Shown here piece after piece: positions 21-27,910 of a stretch of 64,000 bases of DNA. The DNA lies in the NCBI GenBank assembly GCA_963768655.1, contig CAVYIM010000003.1:512001-576000 (forward strand), given 5' to 3'. This DNA comes from an uncultured Chloroflexia bacterium (GTDB taxonomy: Bacteria > Chloroflexota > Limnocylindria > Limnocylindrales > CSP1-4). Position 1 is the stretch's first letter. The number at the start of each line of letters is the position of its first letter. A program made the position numbers and the translations under genes. The notes under the pieces were generated by a model. It did not search any database. It was given only the letters and a program-made list of their open reading frames with translations, and was not told where the DNA came from.

Positions 21-1482
21 TCATAGCGCGGACCGATGCCGGGACCAGTGGCGTGCGGCGCGCGTCGACATGATCCGCTTCTGCTCCGACCCAGTAGCAC
101 CGATGGGCCCCGAACGACCCGACGGGGACGAGCCTCCACGGATACTCGCGGCCACAGCCCGCTCGGCCGGACTCAGCCCCGATCCGGCGTAGTGGAAGCT
201 CCGCCGGATGACGACCTGGTCGCCGACGGCCTTGGCACGGATCTGGGTGAGCCAGGGGTCGGCCGCGGCTCGATACTCCGCCCGGACGGCTCGCAACGCC
301 GCGAAGGTGACCGAGTAGCGACGGGCCTTGGTCAGGAAGTGGCCACGGAAGCCCAGGTTATGGGCCCAGCGTGGGCTCAGGGTCCAGGCCGATCGCATCA
401 GCGCGCGGGCATGATCCGAGAGTTCGGCTCGCTCGATCACTCCCTCCACCCGGATCCGTCGGTCCAGACCACCGCCTGATTGCGCGTCCTTGGTGGCGTA
501 CTTGGCGAGGTAGCCCGCGACGCCGGCTCCGTGCCCCTCGCCGGCGCGCTGGCCACCGGTGTTCAGCGGTCTCGTGTCGATCTGGCTACCCCAGCGGATC
601 ACGAGCTCACGTCCACCCGGTCCCGCCACCGTGACCGCTACGCGCGCCGCGGTGCGGGCGACGGCCTCCGCTAGACGCTGCGCCGTCGCTCCGCCCGCGG
701 GCGCGGTGTCGGGACCGTCGGGGCCGTCGAGCCGGATGACCGCATGGACGTGTACCGATCCACGGGCCTGGAACTCGGCGACCTTGGCATAGGCGACACG
801 GACCTGGGCTCGCAGGGCCGCTACGCTCAGATCCGCTCAAGGCTGCGAGCTCGCGCGGCAGGTACGTGATCGTTCGCCGCCACAGGGCTCCAAGGTTCGC
901 GTTCCACAGAGCCGCGGCCTCGTAGTCATAGCAGTCCGGACAGATTGCCTGGCCGATCCGGGGATCGTCCTCGGCGTGACGATCGAGACAGCGCATCGGG
1001 ATGCCGTGCGAGCAAACCTCTGCCTGGCCACCGAGCCGGCAGCTGCGGACGCCACCGGCATCGACAACTCGGCGATGCACCGCCCCGAACGAGGGTGCGG
1101 TGAACGTCGCGAAGACGAGCGGGTGCGAGGCAACCGCGGAGGAGACTCCTCGGGCCTCGTCGCCTCTGAGTCCCGCTGCGACGAGGAAGTAGGCGTCGCG
1201 GCGATACCGCTCCGAGCAGGGCGGACAGCGCGACTCGCGTCGGTTGCCACAGGCGACGAGGACGAAGCCTGGGGCCTGAGACCGCGTCGATCGCCGGGCG
1301 ACGACTGCGCCGGTCCTTGCCGAGACCGCCACCGACTCGCCTTCCAGGCGGATCGGCGAGGTGCAGCCGCCGGTCCGCCGGATCAGTTCCACGACCGCCG
1401 GTGCGCCGGCTCCGTAGCGGTGCGCGAGGACCGCGAGCGGCGCCGGCGATAGAAGCGGCGATGGGGACGCAGGAGGAACCAC
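21..1482 (-). CDS. repSA: RepSA-type (pSAM2/AICE) rolling-circle replication initiator, with a +1 frameshift near 831
   Basis: The N-part (GGCTSPIRL, CGNRRESRCPPCS, FATFTAPSFGAVH, CPDCYDY) joins, after removing one base at ~831, to YAKVAEFQARGSVHVHAVIRLDG (HUH motif) and YLAKYATK (catalytic Tyr) in the 21..629 frame. Start is approximate. Confidence 0.85.
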
Positions 1483-1493
1483 GGGGACCGGTC

Positions 1494-1919
1494 CTAGCCG
1501 GCCTGCTCGGGGCGGCGCAGAGGCTGCGGGACCTGGGCCTTCGGTGTCGCTGCGCGGACGGCGGTGGCCCGGAACGACCACGCCAGGCGCGGGCGAGAGC
1601 CCGAGGTATCCACGTAGCCGGTTGCCGTCAGGCCCTCGAACGAAACGGCCGGGAACGGCGATCCCGCCGGCGCCTGTGGCAGAACGGGCGGGTTGCGGGC
1701 CGCGATCTTGACCTTCACGACCTTGGTCCGCGCCTCGGGATCGGCGTCGAACACCGAGATCGCCCACAGTGGCAGACCAGTTTCGCGATCGTGCGCCTGG
1801 ACACGCTGCTCTGGCGTAGAGGCATCGAAGTCGATGACTTGCTCTACGGCTCCGATCGCGTATGCCCCCGAAGGGAAGACCTGGTCCATCGTGACGGGGA
1901 TGTGTCTGCCAATTGCCAT
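1494..1919 (-). CDS. pra: Plasmid replication, integration and excision activator (Pra-like)
   Basis: VFPSGA...DRETGLPLW.ISVFDADPEAR..VKVKIAA..PPVLP..P..SPF..V.FEGLTAT.YV...RLAWSFRA matches the AICE Pra family. AGGAGG RBS; lies directly upstream of repSA. Confidence 0.8.
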   Translation of the reverse strand: MAIGRHIPVTMDQVFPSGAYAIGAVEQVIDFDASTPEQRVQAHDRETGLPLWAISVFDADPEARTKVVKVKIAARNPPVLPQAPAGSPFPAVSFEGLTATGYVDTSGSRPRLAWSFRATAVRAATPKAQVPQPLRRPEQAG

Positions 1920-2116
1920 GTCATGACCTCCTTGTCTGATTTCGAACAGCCAGAATCAGCCGACGCTTTGCTCACAGCTATCGCAAGCTGAGGAGCTCGT
2001 GCGGCTCCGAAAACTGGGGGCGAGCGCTCGTTCTTCGGTCCGGAATGCCTTACCGGGACCTGGGCCAGTCGCCATCCAAGACGCTAGGCCGACCAACCGG
2101 GAGAGTCAAGGCTTCT

Positions 2117-2138
2117 GCGTACCATCCCGCGTACCATC
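2117..2138. repeat. 10-bp direct repeat GCGTACCATC x2 (period 12), possible integrase arm-type site
   Basis: Copies at 2117-2126 and 2129-2138. The function is inferred. Confidence 0.3.
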
Positions 2139-2306
2139 GGCGACAAATTCCGATGAAATCACCGTCATGAGGTGTGGAGACGTCACCCCTGAGCTAGAAC
2201 GACAGCCGAAAGGGTCCTCGAAGCCGACAGGCGCACGCTGGAGAGCGGAACCGTTTGCGACTTCGTCGGATCGCTGCGACCGGCGAGTGTGGCCCGATGC
2301 GCGGGG

Positions 2307-2720
2307 TCATCGGGCGGGTTCGCCTCCTATCGCCGCGATCCGCTCATGGAGGTCGCCGGGAGGGGCGGGGCTTGTTACAACTTTCTCTACTGCATCAAGA
2401 CCCGTGATCGTGCCTGCGGAGCGGGCGGCGCGGGCCGCCAGCGAAACATCGGCTCGATCTTCCATGGTGTAGACGTCGGTGCAGTTCTGGCTGCCGGCGG
2501 GTGACGGCGCGATGGGTGCAACGGTGCTCGGCGCTATGGACGCGGACGCGCTGGGCATGCTTTCGGACGAGATCGCAATGATCGAAGGGGTGGGTCCGGG
2601 CGTTGGGGATGCTGCCATGGATCCGGTGGAGGCGACCCGGATGGACAGAGCCGCCAACACGAAGACTACGAGGACTGCGATCAGTGAGAGAGCAGGATTT
2701 GCTCGGCGCACGGTTTTCAC
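2307..2720 (-). CDS. Membrane-anchored/secreted protein; shortened paralog of 3016..3738
   Basis: N-terminal hydrophobic segment, Ser/Pro linker, then a C...TITG...AVEKVV...IAAIGG pattern. The GTG start overlaps the upstream stop (GTGA). Confidence 0.55.
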   Translation of the reverse strand: MKTVRRANPALSLIAVLVVFVLAALSIRVASTGSMAASPTPGPTPSIIAISSESMPSASASIAPSTVAPIAPSPAGSQNCTDVYTMEDRADVSLAARAARSAGTITGLDAVEKVVTSPAPPGDLHERIAAIGGEPAR

Positions 2721-2959
2721 GGGTAGACCGCCTTGATGCCCGAAACGTCACCAGACTGGGGCGTGTAGAAGTTCTCCGGTCCCTGTTTCATGATTTCTGT
2801 AAGGCCGGTGTGGCCAAGGCCCTCCGCGTGACCGAACTCGTGGGTAAGGACTTTGCGCGAGTCGGCGTGGTAGACGTTGCAGCCGCAGGTGGGGTCGTAC
2901 GGATCCGACCAGTCGAAGCCGGGGCGCCTCAGCGCACCAGGCTTGCGGCAATCGGTCGC
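2717..2959 (-). pseudogene. Matrixin/metzincin Zn-metalloprotease C-terminal fragment (not in the ORF track)
   Basis: Manual translation: ...YHADSRKVLTHEFGHAEGLGHTGLTEIMKQGPENFYTPQSGDVSGIKAVYP*. This gives HExxHxxGxxH plus a Met-turn. There is an in-frame TGA at 2960-2962 and no start codon before the motif. Confidence 0.8.
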
Positions 2960-3015
2960 TCATGCCCCGCTCCGGCCCGAGCGGAGCCTGGGCCGTGGCC
3001 AACATGGGCCAGGAG

Positions 3016-3738
3016 CTACGGCACGCGGGAGGTCGACAGCAGCGCACTCGGCGACATCTGACTCCCATCCGGCAGGACTACGCTGCCATTCGTGATGGGC
3101 CAGTTGTCGACCACATCGAAGTCGGCGGCGGGAGCAGCCGTTAGCGATGGCTGGCTCTTGGATGTCAGGAACCAAATGGCACTCAGGCCGACCGAAGCGT
3201 CCGGCTGGCCTGACAGGATGTATGTGCTGCAGCCGACCATGCCGCCGAAGATGCGGACGCGAACCTGACCACCGGCGACTGCCTTGGCAACAGACGAGGC
3301 GTCCGTCTTGCCAACGCCAGTGACCGCGACGGTGACGACCCGATAGACGTCCGTGGCTTCTGGGTTCTTGGTAGGCCTGGAGCCGTCAGCCGTATCAAAC
3401 CGACCGGCACTTACCGCAACGATCGAACCGCTGACCACCGCATCGGAGTGGGCGCTCCAGTCCTTGACGGATGGCTGCAGGGTGAGCGGCTCGGAGATCA
3501 CGGTCTGGCAAGCGGATGAACTGGCTGGCATGACCGAGGCGGCTTCCGACCCCGCAGCTCCGGGGCTACTCGATGGATCTTGGACTGCACCGGCAACCGA
3601 AGTTCCAGACGGGGCGGCGGGCTCTCCGGTCGAGTAGACCCGTGGCAGTATGACCACAACCGCGAGAATGGCGACGATGACGGCGGCGGCCCCAACTTGA
3701 GCTGCCTGACGACGTCCTGGTTGACTCTGACTCCGCAT
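3016..3738 (-). CDS. Membrane-anchored extracellular protein, possible TIMP/NTR-like beta-barrel
   Basis: TM helix, Ser/Ala/Pro linker, then SDAVVSGSIVAV...YRVVTVAV...VRVRIFGGMVG...IWFL. The fold is an inference from the pattern. Confidence 0.7.
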   Translation of the reverse strand: MRSQSQPGRRQAAQVGAAAVIVAILAVVVILPRVYSTGEPAAPSGTSVAGAVQDPSSSPGAAGSEAASVMPASSSACQTVISEPLTLQPSVKDWSAHSDAVVSGSIVAVSAGRFDTADGSRPTKNPEATDVYRVVTVAVTGVGKTDASSVAKAVAGGQVRVRIFGGMVGCSTYILSGQPDASVGLSAIWFLTSKSQPSLTAAPAADFDVVDNWPITNGSVVLPDGSQMSPSALLSTSRVP

Positions 3739-3837
3739 TTCCCACCCCTTCCGCCAAGAGCGGTCGCTCCGAGATCGGCGCTCTCTATGAGTGAGGACAT
3801 CCTGTCGCCTAGAGGCGCGGCAACGGCGCAACCTGCC

Positions 3838-3960
3838 TTACCAAGTCGGCCTTGATTTTGGTGGAACGCACGACACGCAGAAACTCGAGTTGTAGAGGAA
3901 CTGCAGACCCGCGACGTCGCCGCCGGAACTCTGCGCCACTGTGGTCGGAGTTTCTCCCAT
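3838..3960 (-). pseudogene. Possible degraded matrixin C-terminal remnant
   Basis: ...M...QSSGGDVAGLQFLY resembles the last helix of the 2717-2959 fragment (QSGDVSGIKAVY). It sits in the same position relative to the downstream partner gene. Confidence 0.35.
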
Positions 3961-4135
3961 GTATACCGAATTCGGCCAACTCGGGTACAGGGCTAGAGCT
4001 ATGGTGCGCCAGCTATTGAGACAGAAAGCCAGCAGGAACACGAGGCCTCATCGGGCGGTCGCATGAGACCAGTGGCCGCCGCAGACGAGTTGGCATGCGA
4101 GTGCCAATGGGACATTCAGGTCGCCACGCGCCGCA

Positions 4136-4151
4136 ACTCCTCTCGCCCCGA
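4136..4151 (+). repeat. Second copy of putative att core ACTCCTCTCGCCCCGA
   Basis: Exact 16-bp match to 4311-4326. Confidence 0.75.
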
Positions 4152-4195
4152 AGACACCCAGCACATCCGATGACCCACGGACGAGAGCCAACGCG

Positions 4196-5788
4196 TCATG
4201 CACAGCGCACCGAGCGCAGAGGCGGCCTGGCGCCGCCCATAGTCACGAGCACGCGGCCCCGGTGGAGACGTGGGATCCAGATCCCCGAGGAGCGGGTTAG
4301 CCTAGGCCCGACTCCTCTCGCCCCGACCATAACAACCAATCGAGCCCCATTCCAGGCCCCGTCCCACCCTTGAGCCTTCGCTGACGCGCTCGGGTGCAGC
4401 CTCACTTTCCGAGACCCCAGCACATCGATACGCTCGAAGAGAGCCTCCGCTAGCAGCTTGCGACCGGACGGCTCGGCGTCATCCCAGAGCTTGGGCAACT
4501 CGCGAAGCGACTCGACTGCCTCTTGCGGTGTCAGCCCGCCGGCGCGTTCGCCTCTGGCGGCCTGCTCTTCCTGATCGAGCGCCCGCATGGTCGCCTCGAG
4601 GGCATCCGGGTCGCGGTCGCGGCGGTAGCGGGCCATGGCGGCATCACGATCGCGCTCGATGCGCGCGAGGGTCACCGGATCGGGTCCGGACTCATCGGCG
4701 CCGAGCCGGTCAACGACGGCACCCGCAAGCTCGGCATTGGCGCTGACATAGCCCAGAGCCTGGCGGACGAGCCCCTCGAACGCCTCGGCTGGATAGCTCA
4801 CGCCCTTGTGGCGCTTGTCGGTCGAGTTGCGAAAGACCCGTGGCGCGGGCCGTCCGGCGCCCAGCCAATCAGGGCAAGGGAAGTTGTGCCGATAGCGGGC
4901 TTGCTGGCCGATGAGGTGACGGCCGCAGGCGGCGCAGTGGAGCATCGAGAGCGCATAGGGCCGCCGGGTTGTCGGGCGGCCCGGATGGCGGCGGCTGAAC
5001 CGGGAGCGGGCGAGCTGCACGCGGTCCCAGGTGAGCTGATCGATCACGGCCGGAACACGAGTCGCGGTGCCATCACGCAGCCGGCCGATATAGACCGGGT
5101 TGGTCAGGATGCCCCGTGCGGTGTAGAACGGCAGTCCTGTCGCCTCGGCGACTTGCGCGTCGGTCATGCCCTCGGCCGCAGCTGCGAAGGCGGCGCGGAC
5201 CCGCTCGATCTGGGCGGGCACCGGCTCCAGGACCGGCGGCCTGCCGGATCTGATGTAGCCGTATGGCGGCTGGCCGCCGGGCTCACCCAGACGGCGGCGC
5301 TTGGCGGCGAGACCCTCGGATACGCGACGGCCGAGCTTGCGGCTGTAGGACTCGGCCTCGTGAGCCTCCCGCACGAAGTCGTCCCAGCGGTCCGAGTCGG
5401 TGCTGATGATCCGCTCGTCGCAGAACAGGACCGCTACCCCGGCGGCGTGGAGGTCATCGACCGCGATGAGGGTTTGCTTGAGGTTGCGCTGGAAGCGGCT
5501 CACATACCCGACCAGGAGCAGGTCGTATCGGCCTGCTCGCGCGGCTTCGGTCATTGCCGCGAACTCGGGCGCCTGGTACACGGTCCGGCCCGAGGCGGCG
5601 CTCTGCCAGACAAGCCCGGTGTCGACGAGGCCAAAGCGCTCGATGGTCCGGTCCTGAAGCTCGCGCTGGGAGTCCGGACCCCAGTTGTCGTACTGCCCGG
5701 TGGTGGACTCGCGTACCCAGCGGGCCACGCGTAGCCCGGCGATCTGGTCGGTGGAGCGGGGCAGGGCGTGCACGATAGGGCGAGTCAT
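4196..5788 (-). CDS. Large serine recombinase (serine integrase)
   Basis: N-terminal resolvase domain (WVRES..Q, VGYVSRFQRN), recombinase domain (GGQPPYGY, ILTNPVYIG), Zn ribbon (LHCAACG...FPC) and coiled coil. Confidence 0.95.
   Translation of the reverse strand: MTRPIVHALPRSTDQIAGLRVARWVRESTTGQYDNWGPDSQRELQDRTIERFGLVDTGLVWQSAASGRTVYQAPEFAAMTEAARAGRYDLLLVGYVSRFQRNLKQTLIAVDDLHAAGVAVLFCDERIISTDSDRWDDFVREAHEAESYSRKLGRRVSEGLAAKRRRLGEPGGQPPYGYIRSGRPPVLEPVPAQIERVRAAFAAAAEGMTDAQVAEATGLPFYTARGILTNPVYIGRLRDGTATRVPAVIDQLTWDRVQLARSRFSRRHPGRPTTRRPYALSMLHCAACGRHLIGQQARYRHNFPCPDWLGAGRPAPRVFRNSTDKRHKGVSYPAEAFEGLVRQALGYVSANAELAGAVVDRLGADESGPDPVTLARIERDRDAAMARYRRDRDPDALEATMRALDQEEQAARGERAGGLTPQEAVESLRELPKLWDDAEPSGRKLLAEALFERIDVLGSRKVRLHPSASAKAQGWDGAWNGARLVVMVGARGVGPRLTRSSGIWIPRLHRGRVLVTMGGARPPLRSVRCA
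4311..4329 (+). other. Putative att core resembling the tRNA-Pro 3' end, inside the recombinase gene
   Basis: TCCTCTCGCCCCGACCA resembles the T-stem/acceptor/CCA end typical of bacterial tRNA-Pro, but is not preceded by a GGTTCRA T-loop. It encodes MVGARG in the recombinase. Confidence 0.65.
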
Positions 5789-5968
5789 AGCTCAATCACG
5801 GCATAGAGTCCAGAGACCGGCGGCCGGCCCGGCGGGCGTGAGCCTGGCGGATGCAGACCGCCAGCGCCCGGACCAGCGGGTCAGGGGCAGCCAACCCGGC
5901 GGACTCCCGCGCCGGAACCAGCCGGCCCTGACGTTGCCCGGCTCCGTTGGACCGCCGGGCCTGGCCGC

Positions 5969-6874
5969 TCATCGGGCCTTGCCGCCTTGCCGGCCGGCTC
6001 TGGCTGGCTTGCGGCCGGCTGCAGGGTTCCGGCTGGGGCCGTGCGTGCTGGCACCACCCTGGACCTTGGCTGGTCGCGCGCCGGATGTAGCTGGCTTTCG
6101 GCTGGGCGCTGGCTTGCGGGCGGCTGAACGTCTGCCGGACGAGGCTGGCTTGGGGTTGGCCGTTGGCTTGCCGCCCGGTTTCGTCGAGCTTCCTCGCTGG
6201 GCACGGGGGCCAGCCTGGGCCAGCCTGGTGCTGGCCAGGCGGACCGCCCGCTGGGCCACGTCTCCACCGACCACGCTCGCTCCCCGCTCTGCGGCTCCCA
6301 CCAGCAGGGCTCCCGAGCCGCAGAAGGGGTCCACCACCAGGGAACCCCTGCCAATGGCGGCCATCGCGGCTAGCTCACGGCCCAGGCCATCGGGCTTCAT
6401 CGTCGGATACCGTCCAGCCGTGCCAGGCCCGACAGCGGCCACCGATACGAGATCAACGCCAGAGAGAGTCCGGGAGCCAGCAAGGCGCCCAACCAGCACG
6501 AACTCGGTCTGGTGGCGCAGGCCAGCCCCGAGCCCTGGGTACTGACGGTCCCAGGTGATGGTCCGGATGCCGGAGAAGCCAGCCCGCTCCAAGGCGCCGA
6601 TGGCCTCGTGCAGGCCGTCGTTGTTGGTCATGGCCATGAGGACCCCATGGGGCTTGAGCTTGCGGCGGGCAAGCGCGAAGACCCGCCCGATCTGGGGCCA
6701 GGTCAGGCCGCCCGTGAACCAGTCGCGCAGGTGACCGCTGGTCGGGCTGCGGTTGATGCTCGTATACGGCGGGTCCGTGATGACGAGATCGATCGAGCGA
6801 TCGGGCAGCGAGCCCAACAGGCGTTCGGCCGAGACCAGCTCGACGCGGACACGCTCGGACGGCTTAGTGCTCAT
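5969..6874 (-). CDS. Beta-class N4-C/N6-A DNA methyltransferase with a basic C-terminal tail
   Basis: IDLVITDPPY (motif IV) precedes YPTMKP and VVDPFCGSG (motif I). ATG at 6874 has a GGGAGGA RBS and overlaps the Rep stop. No cognate restriction nuclease is adjacent. Confidence 0.9.
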   Translation of the reverse strand: MSTKPSERVRVELVSAERLLGSLPDRSIDLVITDPPYTSINRSPTSGHLRDWFTGGLTWPQIGRVFALARRKLKPHGVLMAMTNNDGLHEAIGALERAGFSGIRTITWDRQYPGLGAGLRHQTEFVLVGRLAGSRTLSGVDLVSVAAVGPGTAGRYPTMKPDGLGRELAAMAAIGRGSLVVDPFCGSGALLVGAAERGASVVGGDVAQRAVRLASTRLAQAGPRAQRGSSTKPGGKPTANPKPASSGRRSAARKPAPSRKPATSGARPAKVQGGASTHGPSRNPAAGRKPARAGRQGGKAR

Positions 6875-8336
6875 AGGGCAGTCCTCCCTCAGGCGGTGGA
6901 GTCCAGGCATACCCTCCACCGGGTAGCCGGTGCGTTTCGAGGCGGCGACGAACGATCGGGAACTCCCAGTCGTCTTCGGTCGTGGCGGCGCCGCAGGTGG
7001 GGCAGATGCGCGGCACGCGGTATTGCTCGAAGCCGAGGTCTCGCAGGACCAGCTCGTCGGCACGCGGCGGTTCTTGCTCTTCGACCTGGACGCGGTAGAG
7101 CGAGCCGAAGCCGGAGACGAGCTTCTGGCGGCGGGTGGCCCAGACGTACTCCCCGATCCGCTCGGGGTCGAGTGAGTCGACGATCCCGTGGGGCTTGCCC
7201 ACGTACTTGAGGACCTCTCGGATCGCACCCTGGCGCGCGGCCGGATCGTCGCGGCTGACGGCCTCCACCCAGACCGACCAGGAGCCCTCGCAGCGCGAGC
7301 TACGGCCATGGCGGCAGTGCTCCCGCTTGCAGGTGATGGTCTGCCAGGTGTCGCGCATCTCGCCCCAGTCGATCCAGGGCGAGTCCATGAGGGTGTGGAG
7401 GTGGGGATGCCAGGTCATCGTGTCTTCGGCGAAGGTGAGATCGCAGGCGACGGCGCCTCCGGCGACCCGCTCGTGGCGATAGGTCTCGCAGTTGCGGTCG
7501 CGGCGGTGGCCCGCATGGACGCATTGCCGCGGGCAGCCTTGGGCGTGGACTTCGCTTGGCGGGTGCACCGGGCAGCGGCTCCGCTGTCGGCCGGTCCGGG
7601 TGGGGCAGCCGGGTTCGCAGCCGGCGGCATGCGCCTCACCCCCGCGGGCGCTGCAGCCCTCGACGCAACGAGGCAGCCGGCAGTCCGGCGCCGCTACCGG
7701 AAGATGGCAAGGATGACCGGGCGCGCCGTCGGGTTCGCCATCGGGTCCGAGGGCGGGCCAGCGCCAGCGGCACGCTCCGCCCGCGATGATGGCCCGGCGA
7801 CGGAGCCTACCGAAGTCGCTCCTCAGCCGCCGAATGCCGGCCTCCAGCTCACCCTGCGCGACGTTGCGAATGGTGAACGTCCAGAAGGCCGGCCGCGCCA
7901 TCTTCTGGGCGAGAGCGTCGTATCGCTCCAGAAGACGGGCCACTCGGGCTCGTTCGCAGTCGGGACAACCCCGGACGTGGCAGGAGAAGGGCGTAGCGAC
8001 GCCAGACCCGCAGCCCTGATGGACGAGAACCCGGACCTGGGTGCAGTCGCGCAGGGCTCCGGCCCGCTCGTCGAACCAGAAGGCGCGCTCCACCTCGCGC
8101 TCCTCGTGAGCGCGACGGCCGCACTCGGAAAGAACATCCGCGAGGTCGAGCTTCGACGCCTCGCGTTGCGCCGGATCGCGGAAGAGCTTGGAGAGTGGGT
8201 CCGCTTGTCCTCTTTGGCGCCTTCTGCGGGCCGATTTCGTGCTGCCACTGTTGGCTTGGTGCCATGTATGGACAGAAGTGGGATGCGCGCGCCGGGCGGG
8301 GACGGGAGCAGTTGCGAGCGCCACCAGACCGTTCAC
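6864..8336 (-). CDS. HUH rolling-circle replication initiator (Rep_1-like) with Cys/His-rich insertions
   Basis: N-terminal C..C..CxxxxCPxC, motif I FWTFTIRN, motif II WHPHLHTLM, motif III EVLKYVGKP, RRQKLVSGFG, and a C-terminal CPTC. Confidence 0.85.
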   Translation of the reverse strand: MNGLVALATAPVPARRAHPTSVHTWHQANSGSTKSARRRRQRGQADPLSKLFRDPAQREASKLDLADVLSECGRRAHEEREVERAFWFDERAGALRDCTQVRVLVHQGCGSGVATPFSCHVRGCPDCERARVARLLERYDALAQKMARPAFWTFTIRNVAQGELEAGIRRLRSDFGRLRRRAIIAGGACRWRWPALGPDGEPDGAPGHPCHLPVAAPDCRLPRCVEGCSARGGEAHAAGCEPGCPTRTGRQRSRCPVHPPSEVHAQGCPRQCVHAGHRRDRNCETYRHERVAGGAVACDLTFAEDTMTWHPHLHTLMDSPWIDWGEMRDTWQTITCKREHCRHGRSSRCEGSWSVWVEAVSRDDPAARQGAIREVLKYVGKPHGIVDSLDPERIGEYVWATRRQKLVSGFGSLYRVQVEEQEPPRADELVLRDLGFEQYRVPRICPTCGAATTEDDWEFPIVRRRLETHRLPGGGYAWTPPPEGGLPYEH

Positions 8337-8557
8337 GGCTGTGCGCCCCGCCGTTCACACTTAGGGCGCGAAGTGGGCCGATGGCCCATCGCAGGAGTGA
8401 AAGAGGCCTGGCGTGCCTTCAGAGCGCCAGACGCGGGATGATCGGGCCTACTCGCGAGACTCAGACGCTTGCGGCACAGATCGGTGCAGGTCCGACGGTC
8501 TGCCCGGCTCCATGTCGGGAGGGGCGTGCCACAGGAGCGGCAGCGGCCCTTGTTCAT
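8333..8557 (-). CDS. Small Zn-finger protein
   Basis: CRSCG...RADRRTCTDLCRKR. ATGA and GTGA overlaps with both neighbours. Confidence 0.7.
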   Translation of the reverse strand: MNKGRCRSCGTPLPTWSRADRRTCTDLCRKRLSLASRPDHPASGALKARQASFTPAMGHRPTSRPKCERRGAQP

Positions 8558-8751
8558 TGGAGGAACCTCGTCGCAAGGACCGCGCCCATGGCTTCCGCGT
8601 CAGAGCGCAACCTCGTCTCGCAGGCCCGGCAACGCGGCCGGCTGCACTTCGCTCGGGATTTCCAGGCATGGCCGCAGCGGGCGCAGACACGCCACGGCCG
8701 GAGCGTCACCTGGACCGTCAGAACCGCTGTTTCGTCTCGCACGCTTGTCAT
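8554..8751 (-). CDS. Small Zn-ribbon protein
   Basis: CARCGHAWKSR....PRCRAC. First gene of the coupled minus-strand operon; start chosen from the RBS. Confidence 0.7.
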   Translation of the reverse strand: MTSVRDETAVLTVQVTLRPWRVCARCGHAWKSRAKCSRPRCRACETRLRSDAEAMGAVLATRFLQ

Positions 8752-8842
8752 CTCGACCCTCTCGTTCGTCGGGCGCAGAGGGTTTCTTACAGCGACAATT
8801 GACGTCGAGGCAAACCAGCCGGCCTCGCGGCCGAGCAATGCT

Positions 8843-9941
8843 CATGCGTGGAACGCGAGAATTGAGCGTGGAAAGTCACGAGGAATTGAGGGCCCGCGGA
8901 AAGGCCTTTCGGCGCGAGCTGGCGGCCTGGCTCATGGCCGATCCGGAAGACAAACCGGACGGGCGGCCCGCCCTGTCGTCCATTCGTCTCACGCGCAGCT
9001 CCCTCTCCGGCGGCGAGGCGTGGGTCGGCAATGCAGCCGTCTCCCTCGATCCCAAGGTCCTGTCGGCACTCGCGTCGGATCGCGACTCGCCCTTCTACGA
9101 CTCGCTCTTCGGGACCGTCCTGCGCGCCTCCGAGCGGGCTATCGATCCGTCGCGCTGGTCCGAGCGAACGGAGCCTCTCATCGTTCGGTATGGACGGGTT
9201 CGGGTCGGGCTCTTCGATTGGACGACCGATCGCGACGCCTTCATCGAGGCGCTACTGGGTCGGCCGGTTCCGTCGACGCCGAGATACGAGCAGCGGGGAC
9301 CGATCCTGCCTGTGATGTCGAGGAGCGACTTCGACTCCGTCCGCGAGCTGCTCGGGGCACGGATGGAGGACAAGATCGCCCTTCTCCACGTAACCGGAGC
9401 CAGGATCGCAAACGGGCTCGACCCTCTCGTGAAGCTGGCAGCGGCCACCTCGTGTTGCGATCCGGTTCGAGCTGCCGTCGGGTATGCGCTGCTGCGCATC
9501 GACCCCCAGGGTTTCGCAGCATCACCATCGGGTCGGATGACGCTGCGGGCCATGGGGGCGGCACCGCGGGGGCGCACGCCTCGGCTAGACATGGAGCTTG
9601 CCGGCGTCTTCGACATCGACCTTGCCGGCTATCTCGGGCTGGTCTTCTGGAGCGGCGCGAAGCAGCTGCGCTCATACCGGGCCACCATGGCGGCGCATCT
9701 GCGGTATCTGTTCGACTACGAGGTCGCGCCACAATGCCGCTGGCCCGACGAGCGCACGCGGCGCGAGGCGCTGATGGTCTGGTTCATGGATCGGTTGGCC
9801 CGCTTGGCGGAGCCTGGTCAGCGCGTTACCAGATCGAAGATCGCCCGGGCCTTGCGCCGGGAGCACCCAGGCGACTACGAAGGCGAAAACGAGGCTGTGA
9901 CTGTCCGTAGGGTGTACCGAGTTTCGGCAAAGCTTACGTAA
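8843..9941 (+). CDS. Hypothetical protein, possible C-terminal HTH (divergent regulator?)
   Basis: Long ORF with protein-like composition. The C-terminal VTRSKIARALRR...VTVRRVYRVSAKL is HTH-like. Start uncertain (8837-8867). Confidence 0.6.
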
Positions 9942-10385
9942 GAGCGACCCAAGTCGAACAATTCAGGCGACCAGCAGACCATGGCTGGGAGGCGAGCTAC
10001 TTCGCGAAGACGCGTCCGCCCGGTCGCGGCCCGCCGAGGGCCGGCAGGAGGCAACCCGTGTGTCGTCCGCCAGATCGTCGCTTCCGACCGAATTCTAGGA
10101 GGCGCGCCGCACCAATTCGCAGCAACCGCCCGCAGGGGTGCGGGAACTAGCCACCCTGGGGGCGTGCATCTGAATCCCGGCGAGCCAGAACTGGGCGACG
10201 TGCCTCTTGTCGGTGACGACGACGTGGCCCTCGCCTGTAGAGACTTGCTGGTAGTCCACCTGAACGACCGCCTAGCAGAGGCCTGGCAGTCGACAACATC
10301 GGCGAGTCCGCGGAAGCCACGTTCCCCGTTCCTGCCAACAATCTGGCGTTCGTTTTGCACAACATGTTGGGAGGGAGTTGCGCTG

Positions 10386-10868
10386 GTGAACACAGACGCG
10401 TTCGACGACCGATATGAGGAGCTGCTCGCGGACTTGCGTCGCGTGTGCCGGGCGGTCGGTGCCGGGGACGAAGCGGAGGACGTGGCTCAGGAGACGCTCT
10501 GGTATGCCAGGGCCCGGCTAAGCGAGCTCCGTGATGACTCGAGACTGGTGCCTTGGCTAAGGAAGATCGCAGTGCGCCACGCCTGGCGGGCTCATGGGAG
10601 GCCCGTCGAAGACCTCCATAGCGTCCTCATCGCGGCACCGACGATCCCCGTCGAGCTTGCCATCGACGAGCGTCGCGCATTGGTTGCCCTCCCACGACGT
10701 GAGCGGGAGGTCGTGATGCTGGTGTACATCGCTGGCTTTCGAGAGGAAGAGGTGGCATCGATGCTCGGCGTGTCAAGAGGAACGGTGGCGAAGACTCTCT
10801 GGAGAGCCCGATGCAGCCTCTCTCGATCACTATCGGACTACTCAAGGAGCGGAATGCCATGTGGTTGA
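10386..10868 (+). CDS. ECF RNA polymerase sigma factor
   Basis: Region 2 (EAEDVAQET, WLRKIA) and region 4 (LPRREREVV...EEVASMLGVSRGTVAKTLWRAR); GGGAGGGAG RBS. Confidence 0.9.
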   Translation: MNTDAFDDRYEELLADLRRVCRAVGAGDEAEDVAQETLWYARARLSELRDDSRLVPWLRKIAVRHAWRAHGRPVEDLHSVLIAAPTIPVELAIDERRALVALPRREREVVMLVYIAGFREEEVASMLGVSRGTVAKTLWRARCSLSRSLSDYSRSGMPCG

Positions 10869-12262
10869 AAGCCCGCGGCCATCTCGATGACGAATGCATC
10901 TCCAGGTTTGTAGACCATGTGCGGGAGCTCAATTCACGCCAGCGTAGCCACCTCGACAAGTGCGACGCATGTCGCGCCAGGGTCGAAGGACACAGGCGGG
11001 CGCGCGACATGCTGCTCCGATTGAACGAAACAGTGCCTCTGCCGACATCCGGCCGCAGGAGTGGCCTTCGTGAGGCTGGAGCTCATCCGCTTCTGGTGGC
11101 CGGTGCCGCCGTGATCGTGATGGTCCTAGTCGTAAAGGTTGTCGTGGCTGGCCGTGGCGGCTACGTTAGCGCTGACTTGGGTGCGGCCACAGCCAAATCC
11201 ACCACGCCGTCGCCATCCTCGTCCGCCTCGCCATCCTCGTCCGCCTCGCCGTCCCCTTACTACAGCGGCGACTGGATTAGGCTTGGATCATCTGAGGTCA
11301 TGGGCGTGGTATGGTCGCCTGACGGTTCGCATCTGTTGGTCTGGTCCGAGCCCTATGCTGGGCAGACGCGCCACTTCCAGTTGCTCGATGCCAACGGTAG
11401 CGTGGTGAGGTCATTCGACGCGGAGGCTGCCGCTTGGATGGATTCGAGCACGTACGTCGTCCAAGAGTCAAGCACATCGCTCTTCGAAGGTCTCGGCAAC
11501 AACCAGGAGGCTAATGCGGGGGTATCGCTGGGCTCGGGATTGCTCAGCAACGGCCATGGAGCCGTCGCGTACATAGCGAACGATGGACAGGCGGTCTCGG
11601 ATCGACCCGGGCTTTCGGATCGGTTCGCCGTTCTCACCCGCAACGGCGCGACGCAGCCGATGCCAGGACGTCCAGCGGCGTGGTCGGAGGATGGCAGCGA
11701 GCTTGCTGTCTGGCACTACACCAGTGGATCTGGAGGAGTGGGAGGGCAGCCCTCAGGGTCGATGTCGGTGCTCGAATGGCCGGGATTGAGACAACTCGCA
11801 CAGTGGCCGGACATTGCCGTGGGCTCGACTCCCGTTCGCTTTGATCCAACCGGACGATACCTTGAGGTTGCCGGGTCGGCGTTTAGCATCCTGGACATCG
11901 CGACGGGTCGCGTTGTACGACCCAGTGGTGCTACTGGCCAGACGCCCGTCTGGGACGCCTCCTCTCACCTCATCGTCCCGAGACTCGATGGGACCGCGGC
12001 TACGTATGCCCTGGACGGCAGCCTCAAGGCGACGCAGGCGGCGGCAAATTCTGCAGCGGGCTCGGCGAACGGACAGACCGTGCTGTACTTCTGGTGGGAG
12101 TCACAGCGACCAATTCTCGTATCGATTGGCGCCTCTGTGCGAGATGTCGATGTGCCGGGAGTCCTCTGGACCTACCCGGAGGTGTCAGCCGACGGATCGA
12201 GGATCGCTATTCTGTGTCGTGTTTCGTCTGACTATGAAGCGTTTCTCCTCACGAGCCAGTAG
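10859..12262 (+). CDS. Zn-binding anti-sigma factor with TM helix and extracellular beta-propeller
   Basis: HLDKCDAC (HxxxCxxC), TM, SPSSSA linker, and WSPDG/WSEDG/FDPTG/VSADG propeller repeats. Overlaps the sigma gene. Confidence 0.85.
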   Translation: MWLKARGHLDDECISRFVDHVRELNSRQRSHLDKCDACRARVEGHRRARDMLLRLNETVPLPTSGRRSGLREAGAHPLLVAGAAVIVMVLVVKVVVAGRGGYVSADLGAATAKSTTPSPSSSASPSSSASPSPYYSGDWIRLGSSEVMGVVWSPDGSHLLVWSEPYAGQTRHFQLLDANGSVVRSFDAEAAAWMDSSTYVVQESSTSLFEGLGNNQEANAGVSLGSGLLSNGHGAVAYIANDGQAVSDRPGLSDRFAVLTRNGATQPMPGRPAAWSEDGSELAVWHYTSGSGGVGGQPSGSMSVLEWPGLRQLAQWPDIAVGSTPVRFDPTGRYLEVAGSAFSILDIATGRVVRPSGATGQTPVWDASSHLIVPRLDGTAATYALDGSLKATQAAANSAAGSANGQTVLYFWWESQRPILVSIGASVRDVDVPGVLWTYPEVSADGSRIAILCRVSSDYEAFLLTSQ

Positions 12263-12495
12263 ACGAGTGCAGGTTCCGCCGGTTCTGCCACCTGATTCCG
12301 TCGCGGACTGAGGTGGCCAATTCCGTGGAGTGCGCAGACGAGGGCGGTTGCGCGGCCGGGCTCGTGAATTCACGGCACAGAAATGTCAATCGAGTGGAGG
12401 TGCCACGCCTACTTCGGCAACTTCTGCATGACGGGCGCCGAGACACTGACCGACCCCGGCGCCCATCATACGATCATATGTGCCCCACACCAGTC

Positions 12496-13829
12496 TCAGT
12501 TGGCCTGGGCAGTGCTCACTTTGTATGCATGCCCACTGATGGGGTCAACATAAACGTCACCGCCACTGCCGTCCTGTCCATGCACGAACGGCGTAAAGGG
12601 CGAATTGCTGCCATCAATTGACGCCCAGACAAGGTGCCCGTCCCCATGCAGCCCGGCCGTCTGCATGATACTCCCCCGCTCAGTCGTCGAAGTCAGATCC
12701 CAGCCATCGGGAAGCGTGGAGGCTCCTGCATATGTGTAGCCGTTGGGGCCGTCGGCCACCATCGCGACTGCACGAACTTCCGCCCCCACCCGGACCTCAA
12801 CGAGCTCGTATGGCGCAACATCCGGCGAGAACGAGTCGACATGAGTAATGGCTCCGAGCGTGTAGCCTGTCAGGTCAATTCCGAGCCTGCCCTTGTCCAC
12901 TTCGTTCACGGCCAAGCCGTCGGCTACTGCGGCGGCTACTGTCGGTCGGGTTATGGCGGGCCCGAGCATCTTGCCGCTCATCGTGTCCTGAGTCACTGAC
13001 GTTGATCTGCTTGTCTGACCCGCCGTCGCTGCTGCTGCTGCCGCTCCGTTGTACTGGCTGGCCTGCCAATCGCCGTACGTCTCGCCCGGGCTGTCGCTGG
13101 GGACGGCATTCGCATACATCTGAAGAACGGTTACGTAGTAACTCGTCCAGAAGGGCCCCGCACCACCATAGCCACTCATGTTCGGACTCAGCCAGGAGCT
13201 CGTGTTCCAGGTCGAGATGGGAACGTTCGAATGCGCGTTCGTGTATGGATCGAACACGTAGAAACTGCTGATTGAGTCGGTGCCGTCAGAAAACGGGTCT
13301 CGAGTCGTGACGTAACCAGTGGTCAGGATCGCGTGACGTCCGGAATTGACGATAGCGCCATCAGGTCGCCCGGTTCCCCTAATGCCGTAGACCAGTTCCC
13401 AGTCTGCCGTGAAGGCACTGCTGTACCGGTAGTCGTTGAAGAACCAATTGCCAGGTGTATGCCAGTAAAGTGCCCAGCCTCGCCACGCGGATCGTGACCA
13501 TAGGTGCCGCTACCATCAGAGCACGGGCCGCTACTGTGCGCCTTCCAGTTGTACTTGTCCCCTTGGGAACTGTTGTCGACGGTGCTGGTTATCTGCGCGC
13601 TTAGCGACGATTGACTGGGATGAGTGGCACCGGGCACGTAATTCAGCCATGACAGGCTCGAAGCCACGACGCACCAACACGCCGTTTGCTGGTGGACGTC
13701 ATACCCGGACTGCCAGGAGTCTTGAGTGTACGCAGCAGCTCCCGCTGGCGAGAGGCCGGCCATCAAGAACGCCAGGGCGGTCGCGGCGAACGCGCGATTC
13801 CGCTGGCTCGGCCCTGCAAAGTGCACCAT
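12496..13829 (-). CDS. Secreted C39/papain-like cysteine peptidase, with a -1 frameshift near 13477
   Basis: Signal peptide and HQQTACWCVVAS (Gln/Cys). Adding one base continues the frame as WALYWH...GRHAILTTGY (His)...FYVFDP (Asp), joining ORFs 13323..14024 and 12496..13257. Confidence 0.75.
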
Positions 13830-14485
13830 AGGAAGTCCTCCCCGCACAGACACGCTCTGTCGACGGATGTCTGCGCCTACCTCTGGGCGATCATGTCCAC
13901 GCGCCCTCTGCACGTGGTGCTCGCCCAGAGGAAGCGTATCACCCGCTCTGTTCTCGGGGAAAGCTCCGGCGTGTGACGGGCAGGCCGTCGCTACGACAGC
14001 CGCTTTGTCGGCTGCAATATCCAAGGCTGGACAGCAAGGATGGGGACGGCGACCGCGGATCGGAGTGACGTTCGACCTCAGCGGTCAGCAACACCCAACA
14101 TGGCGAGGATCCAGAAAGAGCACCGACACGGCCAAGATCCAGACTCGGTGACCCAGTCTCTGGATCATGTCAGCGTTTTGCCGCCCCCATCGACGAGCAA
14201 GTGGAGTGTAACCCCCGGGTGCGCAGTCAGGCGCCCGTCGCGCCGACCACTACGGCTACGGTCGGGCGGTGCGCGTGGATCATCCGCCTCGCAGGGCGTC
14301 GATCATGGCAGCCGAGGATGTCGCATCTGGAACCACCCCGCGAAGATCGGCCGGCTAGCTTGTTATCTCGGCCTCAAGTCCAGTGGAGTCGACCAACTCT
14401 TCCGTCCCAAGCGTCCGGAGGCGCAGCTCGTCTGGCAGCTTCGTTGGCATCTTCGCCCGCGAACGGTAGCGGTCAGGAACCATCC

Positions 14486-14520
14486 AAATAGAACGCCGCC
14501 CACGCATAAATAGAACGCCG
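14486..14520. repeat. 13-bp direct repeat AAATAGAACGCCG x2 (period 22), candidate integrase arm sites
   Basis: Copies at 14486-14498 and 14508-14520, about 30 bp from the tRNA-Lys fragment. Confidence 0.55.
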
Positions 14521-14549
14521 ACGAACACCCGCGACCTCTCTGGTGCGCC

Positions 14550-14594
14550 CTTTTAATCGGCTGGTCGTGGGTCCGAATCCCACACGGCCCTCCA
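14550..14594 (+). other. 3' half of tRNA-Lys(UUU); att direct repeat at the island boundary
   Basis: CTTTTAA anticodon loop, T-arm GTGGG-TCCGAAT-CCCAC (T-loop variant), acceptor 3' strand and CCA. No 5' half is present. Confidence 0.8.
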
Positions 14595-14658
14595 ACATCG
14601 CGCCGTCGGCCGGCGCGATGGACTCAGTGGCGGTTCGCCGTCAGCGGGCGGCCGCGCC

Positions 14659-27835: not shown

Positions 27836-27910
27836 CGCGGGGTGGAGCAGCGGCAGCTCGTCGGGCTCATAACCCGAAGGTCGGCGGTTCGAATCCGTCC
27901 CCCGCAACCA
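27836..27910 (+). tRNA. tRNA-fMet (CAT), initiator
   Basis: Cloverleaf, GGG-CTCATAA-CCC anticodon arm, C1:A72 mismatch, GGTTCGAATCC, encoded CCA. Confidence 0.97.

What the first reader, a model, noticed from the sequence alone, without database searches (positions are those of the whole stretch)
4048..4329. Serine recombinase with a tRNA-Pro-like att core inside its own gene and two tandem, exchangeable C-terminal tails
Seen: codons MVGARG near the recombinase 3' end are the reverse complement of TCCTCTCGCCCCGACCA (4313-4329). The 16-mer ACTCCTCTCGCCCCGA recurs exactly at 4136-4151, 175 bp away. Past core 1 the frame continues as GARGV-GPRLTRSS...RSVRCA*. Past core 2, in the equivalent frame, it reads GARGV-AARGDLNVPLALACQLVCGGHWSHATAR* (stop at 4048-4050), a tail of similar length. 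Known: this motif resembles tRNA-Pro 3' ends, and myxophage Mx8 has attP inside its (tyrosine) int gene, so integration changes the C-terminus and lowers activity. Inference: recombination here would swap the recombinase tail, for example to tRNA-derived VGARGFEP... on integration or to tail 2. That would make an integration-state switch of recombinase activity or stability (the Ala-ending tail may be a degron). The non-tRNA left arms suggest an intact attP or P/P' junctions from tandem accretion. Caveat: a 34-codon open frame is unremarkable at this GC content.
Basis: partly seen in the sequence, partly recalled or inferred. Interest (0 to 1): 0.85.

Follow-up and report, generated by a model that had tools for sequence, protein, structure and literature searches.

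The report
Serine integrase overlapping its attachment site
A mobile element's serine integrase gene runs across its own recombination site, which copies the end of a proline tRNA gene, so each insertion gives the enzyme a different tail; a very similar layout was described in Dehalococcoides in 2011, so this is a new variant, not a new kind.

Summary
The 16-mer occurs exactly twice, 175 bp apart. Its 17-nt form equals the 3' end of the genus's tRNA-Pro(CGG).

The ORF at 4196-5788 (-) is a large serine recombinase (LSR). Comparing junctions places its crossover at the CC dinucleotide 4314-4315, inside codon Gly492. Of 47 close homologs, 43 are conserved through MVGARG and then diverge. Relatives read antisense into an intact tRNA-Pro (4 of 16 loci).

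The LSR belongs to a ~10-kb element (4316-14381). That element is inserted in a pSAM2-like element, which itself sits in tRNA-Lys. Two relatives keep the empty insertion site.

Tail 1 is a conserved 175-bp cassette bounded by both 16-mers. It occurs in 28 of 51 genomes of the genus and evolves as coding sequence (pN/pS 0.23). Tail 2 is an accidental ORF: sister copies of that arm encode 7 residues and a stop.

The proposed activity switch or degron is untested, and AlphaFold gives no confident structure for the tail.

McMurdie et al. 2011 described the same gene/att overlap, tandem islands and hypothesis for DsiB at Dehalococcoides ssrA. I therefore rate this a new variant of a known kind, of moderate interest.

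The parts
4196..5788 (-). Large serine recombinase ORF, 530 aa (P0001). The body is residues 1-492 and the tail is residues 493-530.
   Evidence: Translation. Pfam PF00239 at E 1.3e-13; PF07508 at 17.5 bits, below its cut-off. AlphaFold2 mean pLDDT 84. Foldseek aligns the model over full length to SPbeta, phiC31 and Bxb1 integrase structures, probability 1.00. S28, C285, C288 and C305 are invariant in 83 aligned sequences.
4314..4315 (.). Inferred crossover dinucleotide CC of the left junction (first two bases of codon Gly492 on the minus strand).
   Evidence: In 14 distinct junctions of this LSR lineage everything to the right of CC is conserved and the left side varies. Two junctions even differ at the base just before CC.
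4316..4329 (+). Element-borne P' arm start, TCTCGCCCCGACCA. It is identical to the last 14 nt of tRNA-Pro(CGG) and encodes M-V-G-A-R on the minus strand.
   Evidence: In L021, L024, L026 and L031 this stretch completes a tRNA-Pro(cgg) called by ARAGORN.
4152..4313 (-). Tail cassette 'L_A': 38 tail codons plus stop (4196-4312) and about 45 nt of 3' flank. It is conserved and often stands alone without an LSR.
   Evidence: Copies at C2, C6, C8, C4 and C9 (partial). Found in 28 of 51 genomes of the genus. pN/pS is 0.23 in the tail frame against 0.43-4.1 in the other frames. Of 29 other loci, 5 have it fused to a full-length LSR.
4136..4151 (+). Core 2: a truncated core copy (no CCA) that forms the far border of the tail cassette.
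   Evidence: In 15 of 20 cassette left ends a core-like 16-mer abuts, with differing arms further left.
4048..4135 (-). 'Tail 2': stump of a type-b arm (GGGACATTCAGGTCG... at 4109-4135) plus an accidental 34-codon open frame.
   Evidence: In 7 of 8 core-adjacent copies the arm encodes 7 aa and a TGA. The window arm is 2 nt shorter, so the TGA is out of frame.
4316..14381 (.). Inserted LSR element 'Y', about 10.07 kb.
   Evidence: Relatives L036 and L039 have the tail cassette followed within about 40 bp by a homolog of window 14433-14552 (77-81% identity). This is the empty site. A paralogous 12.9-kb element lies at C4:529955-542886 between core copies.
14352..14381 (+). Right end of Y: type-e arm (T)AGCTTGTTATCTCGGCCTCAAGT plus CC (14380-14381). 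It would encode the tail LEAEITS* if joined to the LSR.
   Evidence: In 17 distinct e-arm junctions the left side is conserved through AAGT-CC and the right side varies. A contig of run X2 leaves the window sequence exactly after 14381. The inverted repeat GCTTGTTAT / ATAACAACC lies symmetrically around CC (sequence).
14382..14549 (.). Flank of the insertion site (B' side), which belongs to the host element X.
   Evidence: Homologous to the sequence beside the tail cassette in L036 and L039.
14550..14603 (+). attR of the tRNA-Lys island: a direct repeat of the tRNA-Lys(ttt) 3' part (46 nt exact at 14550-14595).
   Evidence: The tRNA-Lys lies at C3:510186-510260.
21..1767 (-). pSAM2-type RepSA replication initiator of host element X, split into two ORFs (21-629 and 607-1767).
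   Evidence: Pfam PF20199 at E 8.3e-37 and 4.4e-67. Just left of the window lie a tyrosine integrase (PF00589, E 9.4e-25) and an HTH_17 excisionase-like gene.
5969..7309 (-). DNA methyltransferase of element Y.
   Evidence: Pfam N6_N4_Mtase at E 4.5e-13. NCBIfam gives weak methyltransferase hits. The gene is conserved beside the LSR in relatives.
6864..8336 (-). Rep_1-type (rolling-circle) replication protein of element Y. The start codon is uncertain because the ORF overlaps the methylase ORF.
   Evidence: Pfam PF01446 at E 1.7e-10.

Best explanation
The finding is the left junction of a ~10-kb integrative element (Y, 4316-14381). Its integrase is a large serine recombinase, and the recombination site lies inside that recombinase's own gene.

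Inferred from junction comparison: strand exchange happens at a CC dinucleotide within codon Gly492. The 14 nt on the gene side belong to the element and copy the end of tRNA-Pro(CGG), the family's main target. Insertion into that tRNA therefore rebuilds it. Everything after Gly492 is encoded by whatever DNA lies across the junction.

Shown here: Y sits in a secondary site inside a pSAM2-like element that is itself integrated in tRNA-Lys. The DNA across the junction is a conserved 175-bp tail-coding cassette with a core copy at each end. This explains the two 16-mers. Tail 2 is an accidental ORF in the stump of a third arm type.

My reading of function: the overlap keeps the integrase gene and its site together as one compact module, and the tail exchange follows automatically from it. 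I consider it possible but unproven (about 1 in 3) that the tail also tunes the enzyme.
For: LSR identity.

The core is the tRNA-Pro(CGG) end. An intact tRNA in G015 is followed by 7 more same-strand copies over about 24 kb.

The gene/site overlap is general:
- All 16 loci of relatives carry the core at the LSR 3' end, and 4 of 16 overlap an intact tRNA-Pro(cgg).
- DNA similarity to the window stops at 4299-4314 in 14 of 15 loci.
- 43 of 47 close proteins have MVGARG followed by unrelated tails of 4-139 aa.
- 14 of 121 homologs end GRGER[I/S/T], 13 of them GRGERI. On the tRNA end seen this is the same DNA read in another frame, stopped by the T-loop TGA. So the DNA is conserved, not the peptide.

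Crossover at CC: 14 P' junctions and 17 e-arm junctions change from conserved to variable exactly there. A contig of run X2 diverges after 14381.

Insertion: empty sites in L036 and L039. The island is bounded by a 46-nt tRNA-Lys repeat and carries a tyrosine integrase, an excisionase-like gene and RepSA.

Cassette.

Tail 2.
Against: - No excised circle, empty site or recombination product from this strain was seen. The available runs are assembled contigs, and they showed no joints.
- The intact attP predicted for Y (e-arm, CC, then the Y gene end) was not found. Of the 60 metagenome contigs holding e-arm plus core, 58 extend at least 8 nt beyond it, and none of these 58 continues with the Y gene end.
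- The e-arm was found at the far end of only 6 of 17 elements of this lineage (window, C4, L019, L020, L022, L025; the 15 close loci plus these first two). In the other 11 none lay within the flank held.
- The site Y used has a P-arm-like left half. Textbook serine integrases are not expected to use such a site.
- tRNA-Pro(CGG) itself is missing from this 88.6%-complete assembly.
- The pN/pS sample was limited to copies with an intact 39-codon frame and a short motif, which biases it towards conservation.
Confidence: 0.8

Rival explanations
1. Integration-state switch. The C-terminal tail matters for the enzyme. The LSR would be complete only on the excised circle or beside a tail cassette, and it would be weakened, destabilised or less well expressed when it reads into the tRNA or other DNA.
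For: - A tail pattern (...RG..V.V...PLRxVRSA) recurs in 25 of 121 homologs that are only about 50% identical. It occurs in proteins that read the core in either frame.
- The window's tail fits this pattern and evolves as coding sequence: pN/pS 0.23, with variable columns 19/11/32 by codon position.
- The e-arm keeps a stop codon right after 7 codons in most copies.
- The overlap persists down to 32% identity (L011).
- In phiC31 integrase, acidic residues at the extreme C-terminus touch the directionality factor (bioRxiv 10.1101/2025.05.02.651858, passage read).
Against: - AlphaFold gives pLDDT below 50 for residues 487-530.
- The arm at Y's own far end would give only a 7-aa tail, so this lineage seems to work without the long tail.
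- Integrated copies carry unrelated tails of 4-139 aa yet must still excise.
- 22 of 29 other cassette copies stand without any LSR.
- There are no expression or activity data.
Confidence: 0.3
2. The junction is an intact attP, or a tandem-accretion junction carried along passively. On this reading the cassette is the P arm of a neighbouring element that inserted next to Y at tRNA-Pro, and the pair later moved as a block into the tRNA-Lys island. Y did not insert on its own.
For: - In arrays of relatives every core is flanked by a P-type arm on the left and a gene-end arm on the right.
- The same order, RepSA, cassette, then LSR, occurs in L017 of another species.
- The RepSA element on C9 has an LSR next to tRNA-Arg and a related tail end (...RSVRSA*) at its far end.
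- The cassette has GTTA at -18..-15 from CC, mirroring TAAC at +15..+18 (sequence).
Against: - L036 and L039 show the cassette directly followed by the homolog of 14433-14552 with no LSR element between them. This is what an empty insertion site looks like.
- RepSA and the excisionase-like gene overlap by 4 nt, so the tyrosine module is native to X.
Confidence: 0.12
3. Chance overlap. The tRNA-Pro-like pieces would be scars of tyrosine-integrase elements, unrelated to the serine recombinase, whose ORF merely happens to run on through GC-rich DNA.
For: - Long open frames are common at 70% GC.
- The island does carry a tyrosine integrase.
- tRNA 3' ends are classic targets of tyrosine integrases (PMC2440964, passage; PMC10865867, passages).
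Against: - All 16 loci with LSR relatives have the core at the gene's 3' end.
- Conservation switches exactly at a 2-nt CC, whereas tyrosine integrases use long identity blocks. The tyrosine integrase here uses a 46-nt tRNA-Lys repeat.
- No tyrosine integrase lies next to these cores in the loci examined.
Confidence: 0.03

Closest known systems
Dehalococcoides ssrA genomic islands with the serine recombinase DsiB (McMurdie et al. 2011, BMC Genomics 12:287, PMC3146451; passages read)
   Same: - Same phylum (Chloroflexota).
- A ~540-aa serine recombinase sits on the reverse strand at attL, and its gene always overlaps attL at its 3' end. The stop codon lies outside the island, and C-termini diverge in length and sequence.
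- The insertion point is in the T-loop region of a tRNA-like gene.
- Tandem islands are separated by ~20-bp repeats of the gene's 3' end, and some lack an integrase.
- The authors already proposed that the gene may be complete only on the circle or next to a neighbouring island carrying the 3' fragment.
   Different: - The target here is tRNA-Pro(CGG), not the tmRNA gene.
- No second small serine recombinase (DsiA), RecF or ParB module was seen among the ORFs scanned.
- Y carries a Rep_1 gene.
- There are dispersed secondary sites, one inside another mobile element.
- There is a conserved tail cassette under purifying selection, and homologs read the core in either of two frames.
- Sequence relatedness to DsiB was not tested.
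Myxophage Mx8 IntP (tyrosine integrase with attP inside int; recalled, not retrieved by my search)
   Same: attP lies within the integrase ORF, so integration replaces the C-terminal coding end.
   Different: It is a tyrosine recombinase with a different mechanism and site architecture.
SSV-type 'suicidal' archaeal tyrosine integrases (review PMC8371274, passages read)
   Same: [quoted passage not shown]
   Different: Those genes are split into two non-functional parts, and the review says such integrases are found only in archaea. Here only the last ~7% (or 7 codons) is exchanged, the enzyme is a serine recombinase, and the host is bacterial.
SCCmec and CcrAB
   Same: Large serine recombinases insert at the 3' end of a conserved gene and build composite tandem islands separated by short repeats. 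This comparison is drawn in PMC3146451. NCBIfam CcrB and CcrA are the nearest named models, far below their cut-offs.
   Different: SCCmec uses two recombinases and targets a protein-coding gene. I know of no overlap between the recombinase ORF and the att site there.
Phage serine integrases phiC31, Bxb1, SPbeta
   Same: Same fold over the full length, a 2-nt crossover, and a ~46-bp site with outer inverted repeats.
   Different: As recalled, their attB sites lie in protein-coding genes, and attP is not described as lying inside int. PMC10865867 notes that the tRNA or tmRNA sites of M. smegmatis are the ones used by tyrosine integrases.
pSAM2-type actinomycete integrative and conjugative elements (review PMC2440964, passage)
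   Same: Host element X has RepSA, an excisionase-like gene, a tyrosine integrase and a tRNA 3'-end repeat.
   Different: It is found in Chloroflexota (record titles). No FtsK-like transfer gene was identified among the ORFs scanned, and RepSA is split.

Membership tests
Large serine recombinase (serine integrase) | N-terminal resolvase-type catalytic domain with a serine nucleophile | tested here: met
   PF00239 at E 1.3e-13, residues 25-166. R26, E27, S28, T29 and Q32 are invariant in 83 sequences.
Large serine recombinase (serine integrase) | Recombinase domain, zinc ribbon and embedded coiled coil after the catalytic domain | tested here: met
   PF07508 scores only 17.5 bits against a cut-off of 21.1. 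However, the AlphaFold model (pLDDT 84, long helices at 334-450) aligns over ~540 columns to SPbeta, phiC31 and Bxb1 integrases with probability 1.00. C285, C288, H301 and C305 are invariant.
Large serine recombinase (serine integrase) | Short att sites with a 2-nt crossover and outer inverted repeats | tested here: met
   Comparative only. Conservation breaks at CC in 14 P' junctions and 17 e-arm junctions. TTGTTAT / ATAACAA lie symmetrically around CC.
Large serine recombinase (serine integrase) | Catalyses attP x attB recombination | not testable with these tools
   No raw reads or assays. The contigs showed no joints.
DsiB / ssrA-island type elements of Dehalococcoides | [quoted passage not shown] | tested here: met
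   The feature is as described in PMC3146451.
DsiB / ssrA-island type elements of Dehalococcoides | Tandem islands downstream of the target gene, separated by repeats of its 3' end | tested here: met
   In relatives G015, G006 and G010. In this genome the copies are dispersed and the tRNA itself is not assembled.
DsiB / ssrA-island type elements of Dehalococcoides | Target is the tmRNA gene ssrA | tested here: not met
   The target is tRNA-Pro(cgg).
DsiB / ssrA-island type elements of Dehalococcoides | Six-gene integration module including the small serine recombinase DsiA | tested here: not met
   No second resolvase-domain ORF was found among those scanned beside the LSR. A methylase is present. 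Small ORFs were not scanned exhaustively.
DsiB / ssrA-island type elements of Dehalococcoides | Sequence orthology to DsiB | not tested
Mx8-type or SSV-type integrases with attP inside int | Tyrosine recombinase catalytic domain | tested here: not met
   The protein is a serine recombinase. The resemblance is in layout only.
pSAM2-type integrative conjugative element (for host element X) | RepSA initiator, integrase plus excisionase, and a tRNA 3'-end identity segment repeated at both ends | tested here: met
   PF20199, PF00589 and HTH_17, and a 46-nt repeat of tRNA-Lys.
pSAM2-type integrative conjugative element (for host element X) | FtsK/TraSA-like transfer protein | tested here: inconclusive
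   None of the ORFs scanned in 1768-4130 or in Y matched such a family. Not every ORF was scanned.

The most novel reading that the evidence does not exclude
The tail encoded across the crossover is a working, portable part of these integrases. On this reading the enzyme is complete only on the excised circle or beside a tail cassette. The 175-bp cassettes, each bounded by two cores, would be non-autonomous units that the integrases move in trans. They would serve as landing pads on other mobile elements, handing an incoming integrase a full canonical tail and letting serine-integrase elements ride on conjugative ones.
Probability: 0.2. Interest if true: 0.7.

Novelty: new variant of a known kind. 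Interest (0 to 1): 0.5.

Why it matters
Serine integrases are widely used genome-engineering tools, and their natural targets are usually described as lying in protein-coding genes. This family instead:
- targets a tRNA gene and rebuilds it after insertion;
- carries the crossover inside its own coding sequence;
- builds arrays of up to about 20 sites per genome in soil and peat Chloroflexota.

The family gives many natural 'same body, different tail' variants. These offer a direct way to test the question left open for DsiB since 2011: does an integrase whose gene spans its att site change behaviour between the free and inserted states? The nested insertion also shows one mobile element using a remnant carried by another as its docking site.

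Tried and rejected
- **Expression.** No RNA holder was listed for the stretch. The four runs laid were assembled contigs at low depth. They showed no joints, so neither excision nor circles could be seen. Parts without cover say nothing.
- **Known RNAs.** Rfam at E up to 1 gave nothing in 3400-4700.
- **Flank search in this genome.** I looked here for a homolog of the 14379-14552 flank next to other cassette copies and found none above shuffles. The empty site came later from relatives.
- **A wrong reading, withdrawn.** I first read a loose end of run X4 at 4329 as the host flank of the tRNA-Pro locus and searched the genome for it (nothing found). One search shows that this sequence is the gene end of another LSR lineage.
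- **pN/pS.** The first count was contaminated by tRNA-antisense and unrelated frames. I repeated it on filtered copies.
- **Intact attP of Y.** It was not found. Of 60 metagenome contigs with e-arm plus core, none of the 58 with at least 8 nt beyond it continues into the Y gene end. One contig ends after TAAC.
- **Sequence searches of structures and families.** The PDB sequence search gave only weak catalytic-domain hits. NCBIfam gave CcrB, XisF and CcrA far below their cut-offs.
- **Tail structure.** AlphaFold gave no confident model for residues 487-530.
- **Host guess.** I first assumed an actinobacterial host because of RepSA. Record titles of relatives say Chloroflexota.
- **Literature.** Searches found no paper on a serine integrase with its att site in tRNA-Pro or inside its own gene. 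One search found the DsiB paper. Supplements were not read.
- **Not attempted.** Identifying a directionality factor, and complex prediction.
Full report
**What is in the sequence.**
- The 16-mer ACTCCTCTCGCCCCGA stands exactly at 4136-4151 and 4311-4326.
- The ORF 4196-5788 on the minus strand gives a 530-aa protein (P0001). MVGARG at residues 487-492 is the reverse complement of 4313-4330.
- The protein is a large serine recombinase (LSR).
  - The resolvase domain scores E 1.3e-13.
  - The catalytic serine motif and the zinc-ribbon cysteines are invariant in 83 aligned sequences.
  - The AlphaFold2 model has mean pLDDT 84.
  - Foldseek aligns it over its full length to the SPbeta, phiC31 and Bxb1 integrase structures.

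**The core is the end of tRNA-Pro(CGG).**
- ARAGORN finds tRNA-Pro(tgg) and tRNA-Pro(ggg) in this 9-contig, 88.6%-complete genome. It also reports a 69-nt cgg candidate, which I doubt and which does not end in the core.
- In relative G015 an intact tRNA-Pro(cgg) ends in GGTTCAAATCCTCTCGCCCCGACCA. Seven more copies of the 17-mer follow on the same strand over about 24 kb.
- The 17-mer occurs in 33 of 41 genomes searched. That is 22 of 24 other genomes of the genus, with up to 21 copies each, often in same-strand arrays.
- Record titles of related loci name Chloroflexota, 'Candidatus Limnocylindrales'.

**The gene spans its own site.**
- Of 453 homologs at E 1e-20 or better, 120 were listed.
- Among the 47 closest proteins (63-100% identity, the window's own included), 43 have MVGARG. 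They are alike up to it and unrelated after it.
- Over all 121 proteins, 75 have the motif, followed by tails of 4-139 aa with a median of 21.
- Eight tails read FEP(P/Q)TS..., the antisense of the tRNA.
- A further 14 proteins end in GRGER[I/S/T], 13 of them in GRGERI. On the tRNA end seen, GRGERI is the same DNA read in another frame and stopped by the T-loop TGA. The conserved thing is therefore the DNA site, not the peptide.
- In 16 loci from reference genomes the core sits at the LSR 3' end in all 16, and 4 overlap an ARAGORN-called tRNA-Pro(cgg).
- Nucleotide similarity to the window ends at 4299-4314 in 14 of 15 loci.
- A 99%-identical protein (P0002, 499 aa) carries a different 7-aa tail, so exchange is recent.

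**Where strands are exchanged.**
- I collected 14 distinct junctions with this lineage's gene end and 17 with the arm AGCTTGTTATCTCGGCCTCAAGT (type e).
- The first set is invariant to the right of a CC and variable to its left. The second set is the reverse.
- In the window the CC pairs are 4314-4315 and 14380-14381.
- TTGTTAT and ATAACAA lie symmetrically around the CC, 28 bp apart. This is the layout of a serine-integrase attP.
- A contig of run X2 follows the window up to 14381 and then continues with the tRNA-like 14 nt and other DNA.
- The 14 nt TCTCGCCCCGACCA thus belong to the element and restore the tRNA on insertion.

**Context.**
- The window begins inside an island bounded by tRNA-Lys(ttt) at C3:510186-510260 and a 46-nt exact repeat of its 3' part at 14550-14595.
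- The island carries a tyrosine integrase and an HTH_17 excisionase-like gene just left of the window.
- It also carries a pSAM2-type RepSA, split into two ORFs. This is host element X.
- The LSR, a DNA methylase, a Rep_1 protein and a sigma-70-like gene form element Y, 4316-14381.
- In relatives L036 and L039 the cassette that flanks the LSR is followed within about 40 bp by a homolog of 14433-14552, with no LSR between. This is the empty site, so Y is an insertion into X.
- A frameshifted paralog of Y lies on contig C4 between two core copies, again with an e-arm at its far end.
- E-arms were found at the far end of 6 of 17 elements of the lineage. The other 11 had none within the flank held.

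**The two 'tails'.**
- Tail 1 belongs to a 175-bp cassette (4136-4313).
- The cassette recurs five more times in this genome, one copy being partial. It occurs in 28 of 51 genomes of the genus.
- Its 38 codons are nearly invariant while the DNA is 79-97% identical. On 22 distinct copies pN/pS is 0.23, against 0.43-4.1 in the other five frames. Variable columns number 19, 11 and 32 by codon position. The copies were pre-filtered for an intact frame.
- The tail fits a C-terminal pattern ending PLRxVRSA that 25 of 121 homologs show by my expression. Two of the 25 are probably chance matches.
- Of 29 other cassette loci, 5 are fused to full-length LSRs, whose best matches to my protein panel range from 82% down to about 30% identity. 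Two are fused to LSR fragments, and 22 have no LSR within the flank held.
- In 15 of 20 cassette copies the far end abuts a core-like 16-mer with differing arms beyond.
- Tail 2 is the stump of another arm type. In 7 of 8 core-adjacent copies that arm encodes 7 residues and a TGA. The window copy is 2 nt shorter, so the TGA is out of frame.

**Function.**
- Shown: the anatomy, the insertion, and natural tail exchange.
- Inferred: the CC crossover and activity of the enzyme.
- Open: whether the tail matters.
  - For: the conserved tail pattern, purifying selection, and persistence of the overlap down to 32% identity.
  - Against: no confident structure for residues 487-530, a 7-aa tail from the element's own e-arm, and junk tails in inserted copies.

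**What is known.**
- McMurdie et al. 2011 (PMC3146451, passages read) describe the following in Dehalococcoides:
  - divergent C-termini;
  - tandem islands at the tmRNA gene, with insertion in the T-loop;
  - the same idea that the gene may be complete only on the circle or beside a neighbouring island.
- A review states that integrases which disrupt their own gene are known only from archaea and are tyrosine enzymes (PMC8371274).
- Mx8 is recalled, not read.
- My other searches found no serine integrase targeting tRNA-Pro.

Noticed in passing
window 21-1767; also G000 C6:183812-186084 and C9:289270-291524: pSAM2-type RepSA elements occur three times in this Chloroflexota genome, each with a different integrase. 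One has a tyrosine integrase at tRNA-Lys. The C6 copy has a second, 28%-identical tyrosine integrase. The C9 copy has a frameshifted serine recombinase next to tRNA-Arg, bounded by a 17-nt tRNA-Arg repeat. The window's RepSA is split into two ORFs.
   Followed up: partly
G000 C4:7212-7287, C4:8661 and C4:10363: There are two extra 5' copies of tRNA-Pro(tgg), each running up to the anticodon loop, upstream of the intact gene. They look like tandem islands left by elements that cross over in the anticodon loop.
   Followed up: no
L013/L014 (G015:C10:234662-258419), L015 (G006:C22), L016 (G010:C19): Same-strand arrays of the tRNA-Pro core are spaced 0.5-8.5 kb apart, with at least seven recurrent left-arm types. 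Many units are too small to hold an integrase, so the arrays resemble cassette arrays.
   Followed up: partly
L065-L124 (metagenome contigs): The e-arm plus core stands next to at least a dozen different right-hand sequences. Among these are LSR genes of other lineages (ORFs of 499 and 510 aa) that read into it. Arms and gene ends therefore combine freely.
   Followed up: partly
window 4121 leftwards on the minus strand; type-b arms in L015 and L016: In type-b arms the stop of the integrase frame overlaps an ATG (TGAATG). This suggests a downstream gene coupled to the integrase in the excised form.
   Followed up: no
window 5969-7309 and 6864-8336 (minus strand): The longest ORFs of the methylase and the Rep_1 protein overlap by about 450 nt in different frames, so at least one start codon is further downstream than listed.
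   Followed up: no
window 27836-27910: The only tRNA gene inside the window is tRNA-Met(cat). It lies next to a stretch of 75% GC at 26-28 kb.
   Followed up: no
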